A DNA stretch of 64,000 bases from an uncultured Ardenticatenaceae bacterium (GCA_964602995.1 CAZRTM010000003.1:17142-81141), one strand, 5' to 3'. Numbered from the stretch's first letter, positions 43,377-47,688 are shown. Notes: a model not told the origin generated them from the sequence alone. Numbers and translations are program-made.

Positions 43377-44111
43377 TTACGTGCCGGATGCTTCTTGCCG
43401 GCAGCCCACGGGCAACTCCCGGTTGCGCTCAAAAACAACATCCATGCCCAGATAGGGAGAGGGATCGACGGTATTGCCAAAGATCAATTCGTTGAGATAG
43501 TTGCCGTCACCATCGTCAAGAACTATCGAGAAGTGGAGGTGTGTCCAGACAGAGCGTACGGGCGAGCCACTGTAATCCCCTGTGTAGCCCAGGAGGGTAC
43601 CTTGCTCGACGAAAAACTCGCGTGTTCCCGGTGCGAAGGCAGGCTCGATAAAGTCATTCTTGCCCGATTTGTCAGCCATATGCGTGTAATAGAGCCAGAT
43701 CTGGCGCTGCGGATTGAGGGGATCCTGGGGGACGCGCTGGATGAGTGTGCTTTTCCAAGTCGGCTCGCGGGTGATGTAACCGTCATAAGCAGCATAGACG
43801 GGCGTGACGCCCGGTTCGCCGTCGCTAAAGATATCTATGCCCTGATGGGGCTGTTCTTCTGAGTAGGGGCCGCCCGGATCGGCGTAGAATAAGCCGATGA
43901 AACCGTCAGCGGGCAAGATAAAGGGAGCGCCAGGGCATGCCTCCCGTTGCACGGTCATCAAGGATTGGCGCACCGCTTCATCACCGCGCCACCAGCGAAG
44001 CAGGGTCTGGCTGCCGGGGCTGTTTAGCCAACGCCAGGCCAACGAGATGAGCACAGCGGCGCCGGCCATGATTGCCAACAAGAGCAGCAAGATTTTCTGC
44101 CGTTGGCTCAT
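43377..44111 (-). CDS. M23 family metallopeptidase with N-terminal membrane anchor
   Basis: HQGIDI (HxxxD) and THLHFSI (HxH) motifs. Confidence 0.85.
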   Translation of the reverse strand: MSQRQKILLLLLAIMAGAAVLISLAWRWLNSPGSQTLLRWWRGDEAVRQSLMTVQREACPGAPFILPADGFIGLFYADPGGPYSEEQPHQGIDIFSDGEPGVTPVYAAYDGYITREPTWKSTLIQRVPQDPLNPQRQIWLYYTHMADKSGKNDFIEPAFAPGTREFFVEQGTLLGYTGDYSGSPVRSVWTHLHFSIVLDDGDGNYLNELIFGNTVDPSPYLGMDVVFERNRELPVGCRQEASGT

Positions 44112-45202
44112 TCAAGCTCCCCGAGATGGATGTGGGCATATTCATTCTCGCAAGGCGGACCATCGCTGACCAACATCGACGCTTCATGGAGGTCGATGAC
44201 GATACTGGTGACCGTCTCGTACTGTTCGTCAACGGGCGCGGAACGGTCCACGTGACGACAAATCGAACGGGGGGGATTGGCATGGTCGCGCAGGGCGTCG
44301 AGAATGTTAGCGACGCTAATCCGTTCATGCTGCTCGAGTTGTGCTTCCATGCGTTCTTGCCGCAGGCATGAGTAGCCACGTATTTCATCTGAAGGTTCCT
44401 GGATGCCCAGTTGGTCTGGATCGATGAAATGGTTGGTGTGCACGAGGCAGCCATTTTGCCAGCCGAGCTGATTGGCGGCGCCTGGGGCGGCTTCGACGTC
44501 AATGGCCTGATCGGGCAGCGCTGCGATGAGGAAGTTGGCCGAACAAGAGATATCACCGCCGCTCGCGGCGCGCACAGCGTCGTCTAATGACTGCTGCTGC
44601 AGAATTTCGTAACAGCGAAGATGGAACGGCCGGCCCAGGCGCGCCCAGTCGTCCTCAGTGGTCGTAATGCCGTTGATGGCCAGGCCCACTCCTGCACTAT
44701 TAAAACCGATCTTGCCGCCGAAGATGCCCGCCTCGGTGAAAGATAAGACTTGATGCCCCTCCGGCGTTTTTGTGTGCAAGAGCGCTCCTGCGACGTCAGG
44801 AATCCAGTCCCAGTTCTGCCCAAGGAGGAGGTGGCCATTCTCGGAACGGGCAGGGGCAACGGCAAAGGCTGTGCAGCCGTCCTGGGCTGCCATTTCTCTA
44901 ACGGCAAATTGGTAATAGAGGATTTCATAGCGCACATTGAGCGCTACGATTTCCTCAAAACTCAATTCTGCACCCTCGGCAATGCCGCGCATGCCATCTT
45001 CATAGTCGCTGTTTTGTTCCTTTATTGCAGCGGCATAACGCCGAGCGCGCTGCAGCACTTCGTCCCTCGTCAGCGCGCCTTCCTGTAGGAAACGGTCGAA
45101 GTAGACCTCGATATTGTGGTGGATGCGCTGCCGCAGTTGCTGACCATGTTGCAGACCCTGTTCATAGGCAGAGCCGCTAAGATGAACGATTGGAAGTGTC
45201 AT
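44108..45202 (-). CDS. Peptidase C45 / acyl-CoA:6-APA acyltransferase family protein
   Basis: N-terminal pro-region followed by the DGCTAFAV nucleophile motif. 4-nt overlap with the M23 gene. Confidence 0.75.
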   Translation of the reverse strand: MTLPIVHLSGSAYEQGLQHGQQLRQRIHHNIEVYFDRFLQEGALTRDEVLQRARRYAAAIKEQNSDYEDGMRGIAEGAELSFEEIVALNVRYEILYYQFAVREMAAQDGCTAFAVAPARSENGHLLLGQNWDWIPDVAGALLHTKTPEGHQVLSFTEAGIFGGKIGFNSAGVGLAINGITTTEDDWARLGRPFHLRCYEILQQQSLDDAVRAASGGDISCSANFLIAALPDQAIDVEAAPGAANQLGWQNGCLVHTNHFIDPDQLGIQEPSDEIRGYSCLRQERMEAQLEQHERISVANILDALRDHANPPRSICRHVDRSAPVDEQYETVTSIVIDLHEASMLVSDGPPCENEYAHIHLGELE

Positions 45203-45386
45203 CGGTTCCCTTCACTACCATCCTGGATGGGTAAATGGCCGCCGGAAGCGGCGGCCCGCAACCACGCTCGTTCAGAAACTTCCGAACGGGTACGGCGCGG
45301 GCCACGGGCTTCACGGTGGTGTGACTCTCATTTGTCTTTAGCATAGCGCGATCAGACAGATCGTTCCAAGTTTCAGGGACCACCAG

Positions 45387-46400
45387 CTAGACAGGTGAGA
45401 CGACTCTCTCAGAATCAGGCTCTTCAGCCTCTGCCTCGTCCCCGTCGTTGACTTCCTTCATGTAATCAAGAGCGGCCGGCAGTGGCTTGAAGCCGAGTTG
45501 CAGGTTTAGCTGGAACATCGGATTGTTCTCTTCGTTATCGGTCACGATCGCGGCGTTGCCATACTCTTGGGCGTAACGAATGGCATGCACCTTCAGCGCG
45601 GTTGCGATACCGCGGCGGCGGTGGCTGCGCGCCACACCGGTAAGCCCTGTTTCCAGCAACTTGCTGTTAGACAGGTTACGCCAGAGGACGCTCAGGCCGA
45701 CATATTTGTCGCCGTCGAGGGCTACAAACCAGGCATCGGGTAGCAAGTTTGGACTACCCAGCGTCTGTTTTTCAAACTGTTCGAAGGGTCGCTTCGTCAG
45801 CGTGTCCGGCGTCGGCACGTCCTGCACCAGTTCCCACTCCAGTTCGTATAGCTTCCGTTTCCATTCGGGATCTTCCTCCCTGAGCTGGGCCATCGTCTTG
45901 ATGGCAATGCCCGAATTGGCTACACGTTCCAGCTTCTCAGCAAAGCGCTCGGCATCGAAAGTCGCCGATTCCAGGCGCGAAACGGGGACGCGCATGACCT
46001 TCTTGTAACCCCGGTTCTCCAGGAAGTGGATGGCATCGGTGAAATGCTCTCTCGTGAAGCTGATCAGGAGGCGCGGTTCTCTCGGCTCCAGCTGTTCAAG
46101 GATGAAATCATACAAGGTGTTGCCAAAGCCCTGGCGTTGCGCTTTGGGATGGACCATCACGCGCACAAAGTATTTGTCTGGTTTGAAGGACCATGTTGTA
46201 TGCCCGTACATACCTACGGCGACGACTTCACCCTCATACTCACCGAGAAGGCGTTGGTGAAGGTACTTTGCATCGCGACTGCGATCGTAGTGCTTCCAGC
46301 CGGTTACTGACGAGGGGATGTCTGGCTCAAGCGCATTGGCGATGGCAACCAGCGCCTCGTAGTCTTTATCGCTTTCGAAATCAAACGGTCTAATCTTCAT
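45387..46400 (-). CDS. Tandem-GNAT N-acetyltransferase
   Basis: Two acetyl-CoA loops (QRQGFGNTL, RRRGIATAL). The likely start is MKIRPF at 46400. Confidence 0.78.
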   Translation of the reverse strand: MKIRPFDFESDKDYEALVAIANALEPDIPSSVTGWKHYDRSRDAKYLHQRLLGEYEGEVVAVGMYGHTTWSFKPDKYFVRVMVHPKAQRQGFGNTLYDFILEQLEPREPRLLISFTREHFTDAIHFLENRGYKKVMRVPVSRLESATFDAERFAEKLERVANSGIAIKTMAQLREEDPEWKRKLYELEWELVQDVPTPDTLTKRPFEQFEKQTLGSPNLLPDAWFVALDGDKYVGLSVLWRNLSNSKLLETGLTGVARSHRRRGIATALKVHAIRYAQEYGNAAIVTDNEENNPMFQLNLQLGFKPLPAALDYMKEVNDGDEAEAEEPDSERVVSPV

Positions 46401-46446
46401 TTCTTTCTCTCTCGACTTCAGTTCAAGCGTGCTGTTCTTACGTTTA

Positions 46447-47109
46447 CTATTCAGCTTTGCGTTCATTACGGCCTTCCTCCATTGCCATTTCTGTCTTATC
46501 TGGCCTCACCCCAAGGGCAGCCAGTTCGGACACCACATCTACACCTGCCTGATAATGAATTGCGGACATACCTACCTCCTTTGCTGCCCTGACGTTGGCT
46601 TCGTTATCGTCGATAAACACTGCTTCTTCGGGTTTGCGGCCCAGTCGCTCCAGCGTCAGCTCATATATTTCGGGAGCCGGTTTCATTACGCGCTCCTCGG
46701 CGGAACAGACAATCAGATCGAAGGCATCGGCAATCGGATAGTCATTGTCTAACGTGAGGCGCAGCCGGTCGGTGGCGTTGCTGATGATTGCCGTCTGGTA
46801 CCGGGGGCGCAGGGAGCGAATGTAGCGCATCAGCTCTTCGTCCAGGACGTCTCCGGCCCAGAAGTCGGTGCGGAACTGTTCCAGATCGTGTTGGGATAGC
46901 CGGAGCTGGTTACCAACCCAGGTCCAGAGCTCCTGGTCTGTGATGGCGCCCGATTGGGCCTTGGTGCCCATATCGTCGGCAATACCAAAGACGATTCTTT
47001 CCGATTCCCATTCGTCCAGACCGAGCCGCTTTTCCCAATCGCGCCGGTAGTTGTGATTATGAGTGCGTATCAGGACGCCGCCGACATCGAAGATAACTGC
47101 CTTGATCAT
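46447..47109 (-). CDS. HAD superfamily hydrolase
   Basis: MIKAVIFDVGGVLI (DxD-type motif I), SNA and a FIDDN-type motif IV. Confidence 0.85.
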   Translation of the reverse strand: MIKAVIFDVGGVLIRTHNHNYRRDWEKRLGLDEWESERIVFGIADDMGTKAQSGAITDQELWTWVGNQLRLSQHDLEQFRTDFWAGDVLDEELMRYIRSLRPRYQTAIISNATDRLRLTLDNDYPIADAFDLIVCSAEERVMKPAPEIYELTLERLGRKPEEAVFIDDNEANVRAAKEVGMSAIHYQAGVDVVSELAALGVRPDKTEMAMEEGRNERKAE

Positions 47110-47149
47110 GATTCCTCCAGTGATAAATTCGTGTTCGGAAACAAAAAAA

Positions 47150-47181
47150 GGACGTGAACACCTACACCGGTGTTCACGTCC
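47150..47181 (-). terminator. Rho-independent terminator (distal of a tandem pair)
   Basis: 13-bp perfect stem GGACGTGAACACC/GGTGTTCACGTCC with a 6-nt loop. On the minus strand it is followed by TTTTTTT. Confidence 0.7.
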
Positions 47182-47228
47182 TTTTGGGGTGGAAGGTCGC
47201 CTGTGGTTGGGCGACAGACAACAAAAAA

Positions 47229-47259
47229 GGCCGCAGACACCGGGTGGTGCGCTGCGGCC
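47229..47259 (-). terminator. Rho-independent terminator (proximal, bidirectional-looking)
   Basis: GGCCGCAG...CTGCGGCC stem flanked by A6 and T5 runs, 21 nt after the stop of the 30-codon ORF. Confidence 0.7.
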
Positions 47260-47279
47260 TTTTTGAGTTCTACTTTATG

Positions 47280-47372
47280 TTAACAGGCCATAGACGCACC
47301 ACGAGATGGATCGGAGTATCCTCCGCCACCTGGCCGAGTCAGTTGAGCGATGACAGTCATTATCTTGTGCAT
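47280..47372 (-). CDS. Unannotated 30-codon ORF (MHKIMTVIAQLTRPGGGGYSDPSRGASMAC)
   Basis: SD AGGAGG, a 5-nt spacer and ATG, with its own promoter upstream and two terminators downstream. It is below the ORF-track length cut-off. Confidence 0.45.
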   Translation of the reverse strand: MHKIMTVIAQLTRPGGGGYSDPSRGASMAC

Positions 47373-47442
47373 GCTCGCCTCCTGGTGCATCTAAGTAAGG
47401 CCAATAATCAATGGGCGCTTCACACGAAGCGCACCGTTGGAT

Positions 47443-47472
47443 ACTCTACCATAGCTGTAAGACCGCTGTCAA
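47443..47472 (-). promoter_or_regulatory. Sigma-70 promoter for the small-ORF transcript
   Basis: Minus strand reads TTGACA-18 nt-TAGAGT. A 7-bp stem-loop (GCGCTTC-gtgt-GAAGCGC) lies at the predicted 5' end. Confidence 0.5.
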
Positions 47473-47625
47473 GGGGGTTACTAGGGCTTTTCCAAAGTCC
47501 GAATTATAGCTCGCTCTGGCCGGTCTCCCGACCGTGCCAGTTGCCATCAACTCGAGACGGGTCGCGCGGTCGGGAGACCGGCGACAGCATCGTTTATGAG
47601 AATGGAAAAGCCCTGAGGGGGTTAC
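47473..47625. mobile_element. MITE-like element: 135-bp inverted-repeat unit flanked by 9-bp direct repeats
   Basis: GGGGGTTAC occurs at 47473-47481 and again at 47617-47625. The terminal inverted repeat is AGGGCTTTTCC (47483-47493) / GGAAAAGCCCT (47604-47614). There is an internal 16-bp perfect stem, GCCGGTCTCCCGACCG / CGGTCGGGAGACCGGC. Confidence 0.4.
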
Positions 47626-47659: not shown

Positions 47660-47688
47660 TTGACAGTGACAGGGCGCTCGGCTATAGT
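47660..47688 (+). promoter_or_regulatory. Near-consensus sigma-70 promoter, about 250 nt upstream of slyD
   Basis: TTGACA-17 nt-TATAGT. Confidence 0.6.

What the first reader, a model, noticed from the sequence alone, without database searches (positions are those of the whole stretch)
47150..47472. Unannotated 30-codon gene with a full set of expression signals and a tandem terminator
Seen in sequence, on the minus strand in order:
1. Promoter TTGACA-18-TAGAGT.
2. A 5' stem-loop.
3. SD AGGAGG, a 5-nt spacer and ATG.
4. A 30-codon ORF, MHKIMTVIAQLTRPGGGGYSDPSRGASMAC.
5. Two strong rho-independent terminators: an 8-bp GC stem with a T6 run, then a 13-bp perfect stem with a T7 run.

The peptide has a hydrophobic N-terminal half, a Gly4 run and a C-terminal Cys. 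It matches no family I recognise. A dedicated promoter and double terminator for such a short unit suggest a highly expressed small protein, a peptide precursor or a dual-function sRNA.
Basis: seen in the sequence. Interest (0 to 1): 0.6.

Follow-up and report, generated by a model that had tools for sequence, protein, structure and literature searches.

The report
Leader-peptide attenuator before HAD hydrolase
The 30-codon mini-gene with its promoter and two terminators is real, but it is most likely a ribosome-sensing on/off switch for the downstream HAD hydrolase operon. The same switch family sits before ABC-F, ABC exporter and acetyltransferase genes across Chloroflexota, so it is not a stand-alone small-protein gene.

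Summary
The unit is not a free-standing gene. It is conserved as a single-copy cassette in 60 of 151 genomes of its family (Candidatus Promineifilaceae, Chloroflexota) and occurs in other families and classes of the phylum.

The cassette always points into a downstream gene. That gene is an orthologous HAD-IA hydrolase in 51 of 60 assessable copies. In the rest it is an ABC-F protein, an ABC exporter, an ABC-2 transporter or a GNAT acetyltransferase.

An ORF of 20-45 codons is kept everywhere, but its peptide changes freely, even by frameshift. What is frozen is an RNA box (X) at the ORF's 3' end. X mimics the right arm of terminator 1 and can pair with its left arm (antiterminator) or with a 5' element (anti-antiterminator).

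The stop codon lies 12 nt after X and 23 nt before T1. All three frames are closed there. No promoter exists between T2 and HAD.

Best reading: a ribosome-mediated transcription attenuator of the bmrB-bmrCD type, probably sensing slowed translation. The inducing signal and the HAD function are not shown. I found no published description, but this scan has reported the same kind of leader on other Chloroflexota DNA.

The parts
47443..47472 (-). Sigma-70-type promoter: -35 TTGACA (47472-47467), 18-nt spacer, TG-extended -10 TAGAGT (47448-47443). Predicted start near 47438-47435.
   Evidence: CTTGACA...TATGCTAGAGTA is conserved in the genus. A promoter-like site lies upstream of the leader in 55 of 58 copies.
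47413..47435 (-). 5' hairpin of the leader RNA (GCGCTTC-GUGU-GAAGCGC).
   Evidence: In many genera the equivalent 5' element (GGCGCA...GCGACU) is the partner of box X.
47383..47393 (-). Anti-X (anti-antiterminator arm): UAGAUGCACCA, abutting the SD. It pairs with box X in the minimum-free-energy fold.
   Evidence: Matched 5'/X duplexes average -21.4 kcal/mol, against -18.5 for cross-locus pairs and -15.9 for shuffles.
47378..47383 (-). Shine-Dalgarno AGGAGG of the leader ORF.
   Evidence: An SD plus start codon is conserved in relatives.
47280..47372 (-). Leader ORF, 30 codons plus TAA stop: MHKIMTVIAQLTRPGGGGYSDPSRGASMAC.
   Evidence: The ORF is kept in all intact copies, median 28 codons, range 20-45. 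RNA-library contigs cover it.
47304..47331 (-). Internal hairpin within the ORF, spanning the Gly-run codons.
   Evidence: RNAalifold consensus on the genus alignment, with several compensatory pairs.
47292..47303 (-). Box X (CGUGGUGCGUCU), the antiterminator arm. It is complementary to the T1 left arm and to anti-X, and it mimics the T1 right arm.
   Evidence: Nucleotide-invariant in the genus. Third codon positions are frozen. 88% of cells can pair with T1-left, against 7-60% for slid controls. Co-variation across families.
47275..47283 (-). Stop block UUAACAUAA (UUGACAUAA in relatives). It holds the leader stop codon and a second stop in another frame.
   Evidence: All three frames are closed between X and T1 in 45 of 59 copies, against 5.5 expected.
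47223..47259 (-). Terminator 1: a 13-bp stem with one bulge (47259-47229) plus a U6 tract (47228-47223).
   Evidence: Covariation: 7 of 10 pairs have compensatory changes, 97% of cells are paired, 0 of 500 shuffles reach this.
47196..47215 (-). Spacer hairpin H (GUCGCC...GGCGAC) between T1 and T2.
   Evidence: A hairpin of variable sequence sits at the same place in relatives. Seen, not tested formally.
47143..47185 (-). Terminator 2: A-tract, a 13-bp perfect stem (47181-47150) and a U7 tract (47149-47143). Its left arm resembles the T1 left arm.
   Evidence: Present about 40-50 nt after T1 in about 49 of 62 copies. T1-right/T2-left duplexes average -15.9, against -8.9 for shuffled.
46447..47118 (-). 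Regulated gene: HAD-IA family hydrolase (220 aa, ATG 47109) with its SD GGAGGA (47118-47113). Only about 33 nt separate the T2 U-tract from the ATG.
   Evidence: Pfam PF00702 and PF13419, NCBIfam TIGR01509. Orthologues follow the leader in 51 of 60 copies. No promoter in the spacer.
45387..46466 (-). Two-domain GNAT acetyltransferase. It overlaps the HAD stop by 20 nt, so it is probably co-transcribed.
   Evidence: It follows HAD in the genus and in some other genera only.

Best explanation
The unit is the 5' leader of the HAD(-GNAT) operon, a ribosome-dependent (leader-peptide) transcription attenuator.

Proposed sequence of events:
1. Transcription starts at the strong promoter.
2. The RNA can fold in two ways. 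Box X, at the 3' end of the 30-codon ORF, pairs either with a 5' element next to the SD (anti-antiterminator) or with the left arm of terminator 1 (antiterminator).
3. If the leader is translated briskly, the ribosome reaches the stop codon 12 nt beyond X and sits on X while RNA polymerase makes T1. T1, and then T2, form and transcription ends.
4. If ribosomes are slowed or arrested earlier on the leader, X stays free and captures the T1 left arm.
5. The released T1 right arm can in turn pair with the look-alike left arm of T2. Both terminators are then opened and the HAD operon is transcribed.

Shown here:
- The anatomy and its conservation.
- The T1 helix.
- The complementarity and co-evolution of X with its two partners.
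- The stop-codon geometry.
- The absence of a separate HAD promoter.
- The reuse of the cassette before ABC-F, ABC exporter, ABC-2 and GNAT genes.

Inferred:
- That translation decides termination.
- That the signal is translation inhibition, for example by ribosome-targeting antibiotics. This rests on analogy with bmrB-bmrCD and vmlR and on the kinds of genes controlled.
- That T2 is opened by a relay.
- What the HAD enzyme does.
For: 1. Conservation as a cassette.
- 60 of 151 family genomes, 17 of 36 genera, about one copy each.
- Also in six other Anaerolineae families, and in a further Anaerolineae family plus two families outside the class.

2. An ORF with SD and start, median 28 codons, is kept in all intact copies of the family set.

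3. T1 is proven by covariation: 7 of 10 pairs are compensatory and 0 of 500 shuffles reach this.

4. X can pair with T1-left.
- 88% of cells pair, against 7-60% for slid controls.
- In other families T1-left changed to CCGUGGGCGCAC and X changed with it to GUGCGCCCA, giving 10-14 contiguous pairs.
- Own pairs average -21.5 kcal/mol, outgroup X on family T1-left -14.6, shuffled -12.9.
- In G003, X, the SD-adjacent arm, T1-left and T1-right all switch together to GUAC-type boxes.

5. The 5' partner of X co-varies: -21.4 matched, -18.5 mismatched, -15.9 shuffled.

6. Geometry.
- The stop lies a median of 12 nt after X and 23 nt before T1.
- All three frames are closed there in 45 of 59 copies, against 5.5 expected.

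7. Cis linkage.
- A same-strand HAD orthologue follows in 51 of 60 copies.
- There are 0 of 45 promoter-like sites between T2 and HAD, against 55 of 58 before the leader.
- In this genus the spacer is only about 33 nt.

8. The same leader precedes ABC-F, ABC_membrane exporters, ABC-2 permeases or ATPases, and GNATs (Pfam).

9. RNA-library contigs from two studies cover the ORF and T1 and run past T1 as far as the T2 stem. This is a weak hint.

10. The logic matches the experimentally dissected bmrB-bmrCD attenuator (PMC4191407).
Against: - No experiment or raw-read data show that T1 or T2 terminate, or that read-through is regulated. Contigs cannot show RNA ends, and DNA may be present in RNA libraries.
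- Within the family, the X:T1-left covariation is not above shuffles because both sides are nearly invariant. Support comes from cross-family comparison of only 8 outgroup copies.
- Two strong terminators in series are unusual for an attenuator. The relay that would open T2 rests on complementarity, with only a modest matched-versus-mismatched difference (-15.9 against -14.2). About 13 of 62 copies lack T2.
- Arg(-2), Pro(-4) and Gly(-9) codons have free third positions. This could mean the peptide itself matters, as an arrest peptide or in trans, which the simple model does not need.
- HAD hydrolases are not a known resistance or translation-stress class, so the inferred signal is least secure for this window's own operon.
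Confidence: 0.78

Rival explanations
1. It is a stand-alone gene for a small protein that acts in trans, or a precursor of a modified peptide. In this reading it ends at its own two terminators and merely lies next to HAD.
For: - Strong promoter and SD. The ORF is conserved.
- Gly(-9), Pro(-4) and Arg(-2) codons vary at third positions as under amino-acid selection.
- There is a precedent for a leader peptide with a trans function, peTrpL (PMC7298713).
Against: - The peptide is not conserved outside the part that overlaps RNA boxes.
- Several lineages read the C-terminus in another frame.
- No Pfam or NCBIfam family matches it.
- No maturase-type neighbours are present.
- The cassette always points into a gene that lacks its own promoter.
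- The cassette is reused before six different gene classes.
- The CGN pattern is also explained by an RNA helix (GUCG with CGAC) that ends at the G.
Confidence: 0.07
2. It is an amino-acid-sensing attenuator of the trp/his/ilv type. Stalling at particular codons (for example Gly, Ser and Cys, or Ile and Asn) would report shortage of that amino acid, and HAD would be a biosynthetic phosphatase such as a phosphoserine phosphatase.
For: - The four-segment architecture is the same as in classical attenuators.
- The window's peptide has a Gly4 run.
- Asn, Ile, Phe and Ser are over-represented in the N-terminal halves.
Against: - No amino acid is present in two or more copies in the N-terminal parts of all leaders. 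The best is Ile, in 32 of 59.
- The enrichment is for AT-rich codons in general.
- The same leader controls ABC-F, multidrug-type ABC exporters and GNATs, which are not amino-acid biosynthesis genes.
Confidence: 0.07
3. It is primarily a trans-acting small RNA, alone or dual-function. The terminated 150-290 nt transcript would be the functional product, and the single-stranded UUGACAUAA block its seed.
For: - The unit is highly structured (z = -8.5).
- The UUGACAUAA block is conserved and unpaired, and lies before a terminator hairpin.
- There is a precedent of attenuator-derived sRNAs, rnTrpL.
- RNA contigs cover just this unit.
Against: - The UUGACAUAA block is explained by its role as a multi-frame stop.
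- Strict cis linkage to a downstream gene without a promoter.
- The alternative pairings of X are not needed for an sRNA.
- This reading does not exclude the attenuator. It could be an added function.
Confidence: 0.05
4. It is a riboswitch or a protein-binding antitermination leader in which the ORF is incidental.
For: T1 and T2 stems are conserved in sequence, not only in structure. That could mark a protein-binding site.
Against: - No Rfam family reaches threshold.
- There is no conserved multi-helix aptamer.
- The ORF, with SD or leaderless start, its length and the position of its stop relative to X and T1 are conserved far beyond chance.
Confidence: 0.03

Closest known systems
bmrB leader of the Bacillus subtilis bmrBCD operon (ribosome-mediated transcriptional attenuation; Reilman et al. 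2014, PMC4191407)
   Same: - Own promoter and a translated short ORF.
- Terminator, antiterminator and anti-antiterminator arrangement.
- Efficient leader translation favours termination, and slowed translation favours read-through.
- Paralogous copies of the present leader control ABC_membrane-type exporters like BmrCD.
   Different: - No sequence similarity.
- Here the ORF is about 28 codons and ends 23 nt before the terminator. In bmrB (53 codons) the terminator lies inside the ORF.
- Two tandem terminators with look-alike left arms.
- The main regulated gene in this family is an HAD hydrolase.
- Induction by antibiotics is untested here.
Leaders of ABC-F resistance genes: vmlR (B. subtilis), lmo0919, and msrD with its leader MsrDL (PMC10314930)
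   Same: A short upstream ORF plus an intrinsic terminator ahead of an ABC-F gene. At least five copies of the present leader family precede ABC-F genes.
   Different: - Those uORFs are very short (3-6 codons), and some stall at the stop codon or overlap the terminator.
- Here a terminating ribosome covers the antiterminator arm, not the terminator.
- The drug specificity of the present family is unknown.
Classical amino-acid operon attenuators (trpL, hisL, ilvL and others)
   Same: The 1:2, 2:3, 3:4 logic with a translated leader. A ribosome at the stop codon masks segment 2.
   Different: - No run of regulatory codons.
- Segment 1 lies at or before the SD, not inside the ORF.
- The regulated genes are not biosynthetic.
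Leader-peptide attenuators of Chloroflexota reported earlier in this scan (unpublished AI notes e1-4352333, e1-4884402, e1-3192943 and others)
   Same: A promoter, an ORF of about 28-33 codons and one or two look-alike terminators ahead of ABC-2/DrrAB-like exporters, GNATs and, in one operon, an HAD gene. My model also finds copies outside the class, ahead of ABC ATPases.
   Different: Identity of family was not verified. A sequence look-up with one out-of-class copy found nothing. In this window and its family, the HAD hydrolase is the first and usually the only conserved regulated gene.

Membership tests
Ribosome-dependent (leader-peptide) transcription attenuator | A short ORF with translation signals in the 5' leader, conserved as an ORF. 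| tested here: met
   In the family set, all intact copies have an SD plus start and 20-45 codons. Of the 20 distant copies, 17 have an SD-led ORF, two are leaderless, and for one (L213) the script found no leader ORF. Translation itself is not shown experimentally.
Ribosome-dependent (leader-peptide) transcription attenuator | An intrinsic terminator between the leader ORF and the regulated gene. | tested here: met
   T1: 7 of 10 pairs are compensatory, followed by a U-tract. T2 is found by the scanner and is conserved.
Ribosome-dependent (leader-peptide) transcription attenuator | A mutually exclusive antiterminator whose upstream arm lies where a translating ribosome can mask it. | tested here: met
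   X:T1-left complementarity and co-evolution across families. X ends 12 nt before the stop codon. The covariation test within the family is uninformative.
Ribosome-dependent (leader-peptide) transcription attenuator | The regulated gene is co-oriented and depends on the leader promoter. | tested here: met
   51 of 60 copies have HAD on the same strand. 0 of 45 spacers have a promoter-like site, against 55 of 58 upstream of the leader.
Ribosome-dependent (leader-peptide) transcription attenuator | Read-through changes with leader translation. | not testable with these tools
   This needs reporter fusions, Term-seq or in vitro coupled transcription-translation.
Antibiotic-responsive attenuators (bmrB, vmlR, erm, cat class) | Control of resistance-type genes. 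| tested here: inconclusive
   Met for paralogous copies: ABC-F, ABC exporters, ABC-2 and GNAT. The window's own target is an HAD-IA hydrolase of unknown substrate.
Antibiotic-responsive attenuators (bmrB, vmlR, erm, cat class) | Induction by ribosome-targeting drugs. | not testable with these tools
   No culture or expression data under drug exposure are available.
Amino-acid operon attenuators | A run or enrichment of codons for the sensed amino acid in the leader. | tested here: not met
   No residue is shared at two or more copies by all leaders. Ile is the best, in 32 of 59.
Known RNA families (Rfam 15) | A match at the gathering score. | tested here: not met
   No match in the whole window. 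Below-threshold matches are generic hairpin hits only.
Known small-protein or RiPP-precursor families | A profile match or adjacent maturase genes. | tested here: not met
   No Pfam or NCBIfam hit up to E = 10. The neighbours are HAD, GNAT, a C45 hydrolase and SlyD.
Type I toxin-antitoxin mRNA | A hydrophobic membrane peptide. | tested here: not met
   The peptides are mostly polar or basic and not conserved. An antisense RNA was not sought.

The most novel reading that the evidence does not exclude
The leader defines a phylum-wide translation-stress regulon of Chloroflexota in which one sensing ORF opens two tandem terminators by a helix relay (X captures T1-left, then T1-right captures T2-left). 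In Promineifilaceae its principal output is an HAD-family hydrolase. That enzyme would be a new kind of effector against ribosome-targeting compounds or stalled translation.
Probability: 0.3. Interest if true: 0.7.

Novelty: new member of a known kind. Interest (0 to 1): 0.5.

Why it matters
Chloroflexota such as Promineifilaceae are abundant and mostly uncultured in soil, compost and activated sludge, and almost nothing is known about their gene regulation.

This leader family offers three things:
- A sequence-recognisable marker for genes that these bacteria switch on when translation falters. Those genes include ABC-F, multidrug-type ABC and ABC-2 exporters, and acetyltransferases.
- An uncharacterised HAD hydrolase, flagged as the main regulated gene in one family. 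That makes a concrete, testable lead to its function.
- A clean natural example of one ORF possibly controlling two terminators in series.

For annotation, it also shows that the 'gene' here should be recorded as a regulatory leader, not as a small protein.

Tried and rejected
- **Rfam:** the gathering and E-value modes gave nothing usable. Only miRNA- or sRNA-like hits to generic hairpins appeared, far below threshold.
- **Global pattern scan of genome contigs** (GTGCGYCT-N22-52-GCCGCAGCGCA): too loose. It was useful only for the record title that names the family. Three other Chloroflexota hits from it did not match the model.
- **Within-family covariation of X with T1-left:** not above shuffles, because the columns are almost invariant.
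- **RNA contigs:** the lack of cover over the 5' UTR (47377-47436) and over the T2 stem cannot be interpreted. Palindromes break k-mer contigs, and contigs show no ends.
- **Peptide as a known family, RiPP precursor or type I toxin:** no profile hit, no maturases, not hydrophobic.
- **Peptide-level selection from codon periodicity alone:** rejected as proof. The free third position of the Arg codon coincides with the end of an RNA helix.
- **Amino-acid-specific sensing:** no shared regulatory residue.
- **UUGACAUAA as a second promoter's -35:** no conserved -10 at the right spacing (read).
- **L064 and L066** were model hits that proved to be ordinary terminators. One lies beside what looks like a tRNA gene (not scanned). 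Both were dropped.
- **Sequence look-up of an out-of-class copy** in earlier findings: nothing found.

Full report
**1. Observation**

- -35 TTGACA at 47472-47467.
- 18-nt spacer.
- TG-extended -10 TAGAGT at 47448-47443. The scanner scored it 10/12.
- 5' hairpin within 47435-47413.
- SD AGGAGG at 47383-47378.
- ATG at 47372.
- 30-codon ORF ending with TAA at 47282-47280.
- Terminator 1 at 47259-47229, with U6.
- Small hairpin at 47215-47196.
- Terminator 2 at 47181-47150, with U7.

Only about 33 nt after T2 comes the ATG (47109) of a 220-aa gene on the same strand. The predicted transcript folds far better than shuffles (z = -8.5). Rfam has no family for it, and Pfam and NCBIfam have none for the peptide.

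**2. Conservation**

A DNA search in relatives showed that only the distal ORF and T1 are alignable. In six species of the genus the following are conserved, while the peptide is not:
- the promoter;
- the ATG;
- an ORF of 29-31 codons;
- the stop inside UGUUGACAUAA;
- T1 and T2.

A covariance model of the distal ORF plus T1 (R1) found the unit in 60 of 151 genomes of the family, in 17 of 36 genera, and nearly always as one copy. A record title identifies the family as Candidatus Promineifilaceae. Earlier notes place the genome in Chloroflexota.

With R1 and a broader model R2, the unit also appears elsewhere:
- in six other Anaerolineae families;
- in a further Anaerolineae family;
- in two families outside the class.

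**3. The ORF is kept, the peptide is not**

All intact copies of the family set have an SD-preceded ORF, median 28 codons, range 20-45. Among the 20 distant copies, two are leaderless, with the ATG 7 nt after a TATAAT box, and for one (L213) no leader ORF was found.

The N-terminal half is unconserved. About 90% of copies share the C-terminal pattern G-[DG]-G-x(1-3)-P-[CS]-R-[SG]-A-[PS]-x-x.

Entropy by codon position is mixed:
- Gly(-9), Pro(-4) and Arg(-2) have free third positions. For Arg the counts are CGU 14, CGG 12, CGC 9 and CGA 4.
- The codons AGU/GGU-GCG-CCU/UCU have frozen third positions, which is an RNA-level constraint.

At least five lineages (L033/L048, L042, L068, L206, L207/L212) read this stretch in a different frame after a 1-nt indel. 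They keep the nucleotide boxes, and their ORF still ends at the same place.

The conserved UUGACAUAA block helps to explain this. All three frames are closed between X and T1 in 45 of 59 copies, against 5.5 expected. So it is translation up to a fixed point that is selected. The peptide sequence is largely a by-product of the RNA constraints.

**4. The RNA switch**

T1 is a true helix: 7 of 10 pairs show compensatory changes and 0 of 500 shuffles reach this.

Box X is CGUGGUGCGUCU in the window (47303-47292) and AGUGCGCCUGC in most of the family. It mimics the T1 right arm and is complementary to the T1 left arm.
- 88% of cells can pair, against 7-60% when the partner is slid. Both sides are too invariant within the family for a covariation signal.
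- The outgroup supplies that signal. There T1-left is CCGUGGGCGCAC and X is GUGCGCCCA(U), giving 10-14 contiguous pairs.
- Own X:T1-left duplexes average -21.5 kcal/mol. Outgroup X on family T1-left gives -14.6, and shuffled X gives -12.9.
- In G003, X, the SD-adjacent arm, T1-left and T1-right have all changed together to GUAC-type boxes.

X also has a 5' partner. It is either GGAGACGCA(C), right after the SD, or GGCGCA...GCGACU in the 5' UTR. In the window it is UAGAUGCACCA at 47393-47383. Matched pairs average -21.4, cross-locus pairs -18.5 and shuffles -15.9 kcal/mol.

This gives the classical set of four segments: anti-X (1), X (2), T1-left (3) and T1-right (4).

**5. Geometry**

The stop codon lies a median of 12 nt after the GCG of X and 23 nt before T1. 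A terminating ribosome therefore covers X but cannot touch T1.
- Brisk translation masks the antiterminator arm, and T1 forms.
- A ribosome held back earlier leaves X free to take T1-left.

This is the logic demonstrated for bmrB-bmrCD in B. subtilis. There, translation inhibitors allow the antiterminator to form, and an anti-antiterminator is also predicted (PMC4191407).

**6. Terminator 2**

T2 (AAGGACGYRGG...CCYRCGUCCUUUUUU) follows T1 by about 40-50 nt in about 49 of 62 copies. Its left arm resembles the T1 left arm, so the T1 right arm plus U-tract can pair with it. The duplexes average -15.9 kcal/mol matched, -14.2 mismatched and -8.9 shuffled.

A relay is thus possible: X takes T1-left, and the freed T1-right takes T2-left. 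I rate it at about 0.4. It is an inference.

**7. Cis linkage and the regulon**

The same-strand gene after the cassette is an orthologue (52-68% identity) of the window's HAD-IA hydrolase in 51 of 60 assessable copies.

Between T2 and HAD there is no promoter-like site in 0 of 45 spacers, with 2.4 expected by shuffling. By contrast, 55 of 58 leaders have one upstream.

The remaining family copies are often second copies in a genome. Together with all copies in other families, they precede the following genes by Pfam:

| Downstream gene | Loci |
|---|---|
| ABC-F proteins | L038, L063, L198, L209, L213 |
| ABC_membrane exporters | L035, L041, L042, L045, L197, L214 |
| ABC-2 permeases | L200, L201, L202, L204 |
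| Single ABC ATPases | L203, L207, L211, L216 |
| GNATs | L061, L199, L205, L210, L215 |
| Unknown 132-aa protein (hydrophobic N-terminus; no Pfam match) | L060, L062 |

A portable cassette in front of exactly the gene classes known to be governed by ribosome-stalling leaders argues for a cis-acting sensor of impaired translation.

No amino acid is consistently enriched in the leaders, which speaks against an amino-acid attenuator.

The HAD enzyme resembles uncharacterised HAD phosphatases, YihX and the phosphatase domain of epoxide hydrolase 2. Its substrate is unknown.

**8. Expression**

Six metatranscriptome runs hold part of the stretch. Contigs from two studies match 47187-47376 and 47196-47363 exactly. 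That is the ORF, T1 and the spacer hairpin, stopping at the T2 stem. A separate contig covers HAD from the T2 tail onward.

This is consistent with transcription through T1. However, contigs do not show RNA ends, and palindromes break them, so I count it only as a weak hint.

**9. Comparison and novelty**

The mechanism is a known kind. The family is absent from Rfam, and my literature searches found no description of it.

After I had reached this reading, look-ups showed that this scan had already reported leader-peptide attenuators in other Chloroflexota. Some have twin terminators, most sit ahead of ABC-2 or DrrAB-like exporters, and one sits ahead of an operon that contains an HAD gene. 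These are unchecked notes. They agree with my reading but are not independent evidence, and I could not verify family identity.

What this window adds:
- the HAD hydrolase as the dominant regulated gene of a whole family;
- the cross-family covariation of the antiterminator;
- the multi-frame stop block;
- the promoter-free spacer.

**10. Verdict**

| Question | Verdict |
|---|---|
| Observation | Confirmed |
| First reading | Partly supported: the ORF is real and probably translated, but it is a cis-acting leader |
| Attenuator | Confidence about 0.78 |
| Signal is slowed or inhibited translation | About 0.55 |
| T2 relay | About 0.4 |
| Novelty | New member of a known kind |

Noticed in passing
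window 47482-47615 (core hairpin 47511-47589): A palindromic, MITE/REP-like element lies directly upstream of the leader's -35 box. It recurs at least 12 times in this genome at about 80% identity, once at 100%, and occurs in relatives. Its 15-bp stem gave the only sub-threshold Rfam 'miRNA' hits.
   Followed up: partly
L028, L016, L021, L024, L026, L045 (spacer between T2 and the regulated gene): In many genera the T2-to-gene spacer is filled with short tandem repeats of about 7-8 nt, for example GGCAAGGT, CTGCAACT, CAATTAC and GGAGATT. Their number varies between species. Function unknown.
   Followed up: no
L208 and L209 (another Anaerolineae family): The leader ORF starts 7 nt after a GGTATAAT box and has no SD. 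This is apparently a leaderless version of the same attenuator, ahead of ABC-F genes.
   Followed up: partly
window 47660-47688 (+ strand): A near-consensus promoter, TTGACA-17-TATAGT (11/12), points towards slyD, about 200 nt before its start.
   Followed up: no
G003 (L020 and L039), G125, G145, G154, G090, G162, G117, G114: Some genomes carry two copies of the leader. In several, one copy precedes HAD and the other an ABC exporter. In G003 both copies share the GUAC-type variant of all pairing boxes.
   Followed up: partly
window 44108-46466 (- strand): In this genus HAD is followed by a two-domain GNAT that overlaps it by 20 nt, and then by a C45-family autoproteolytic acyltransferase/hydrolase. 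The GNAT follows HAD in only some other genera.
   Followed up: partly
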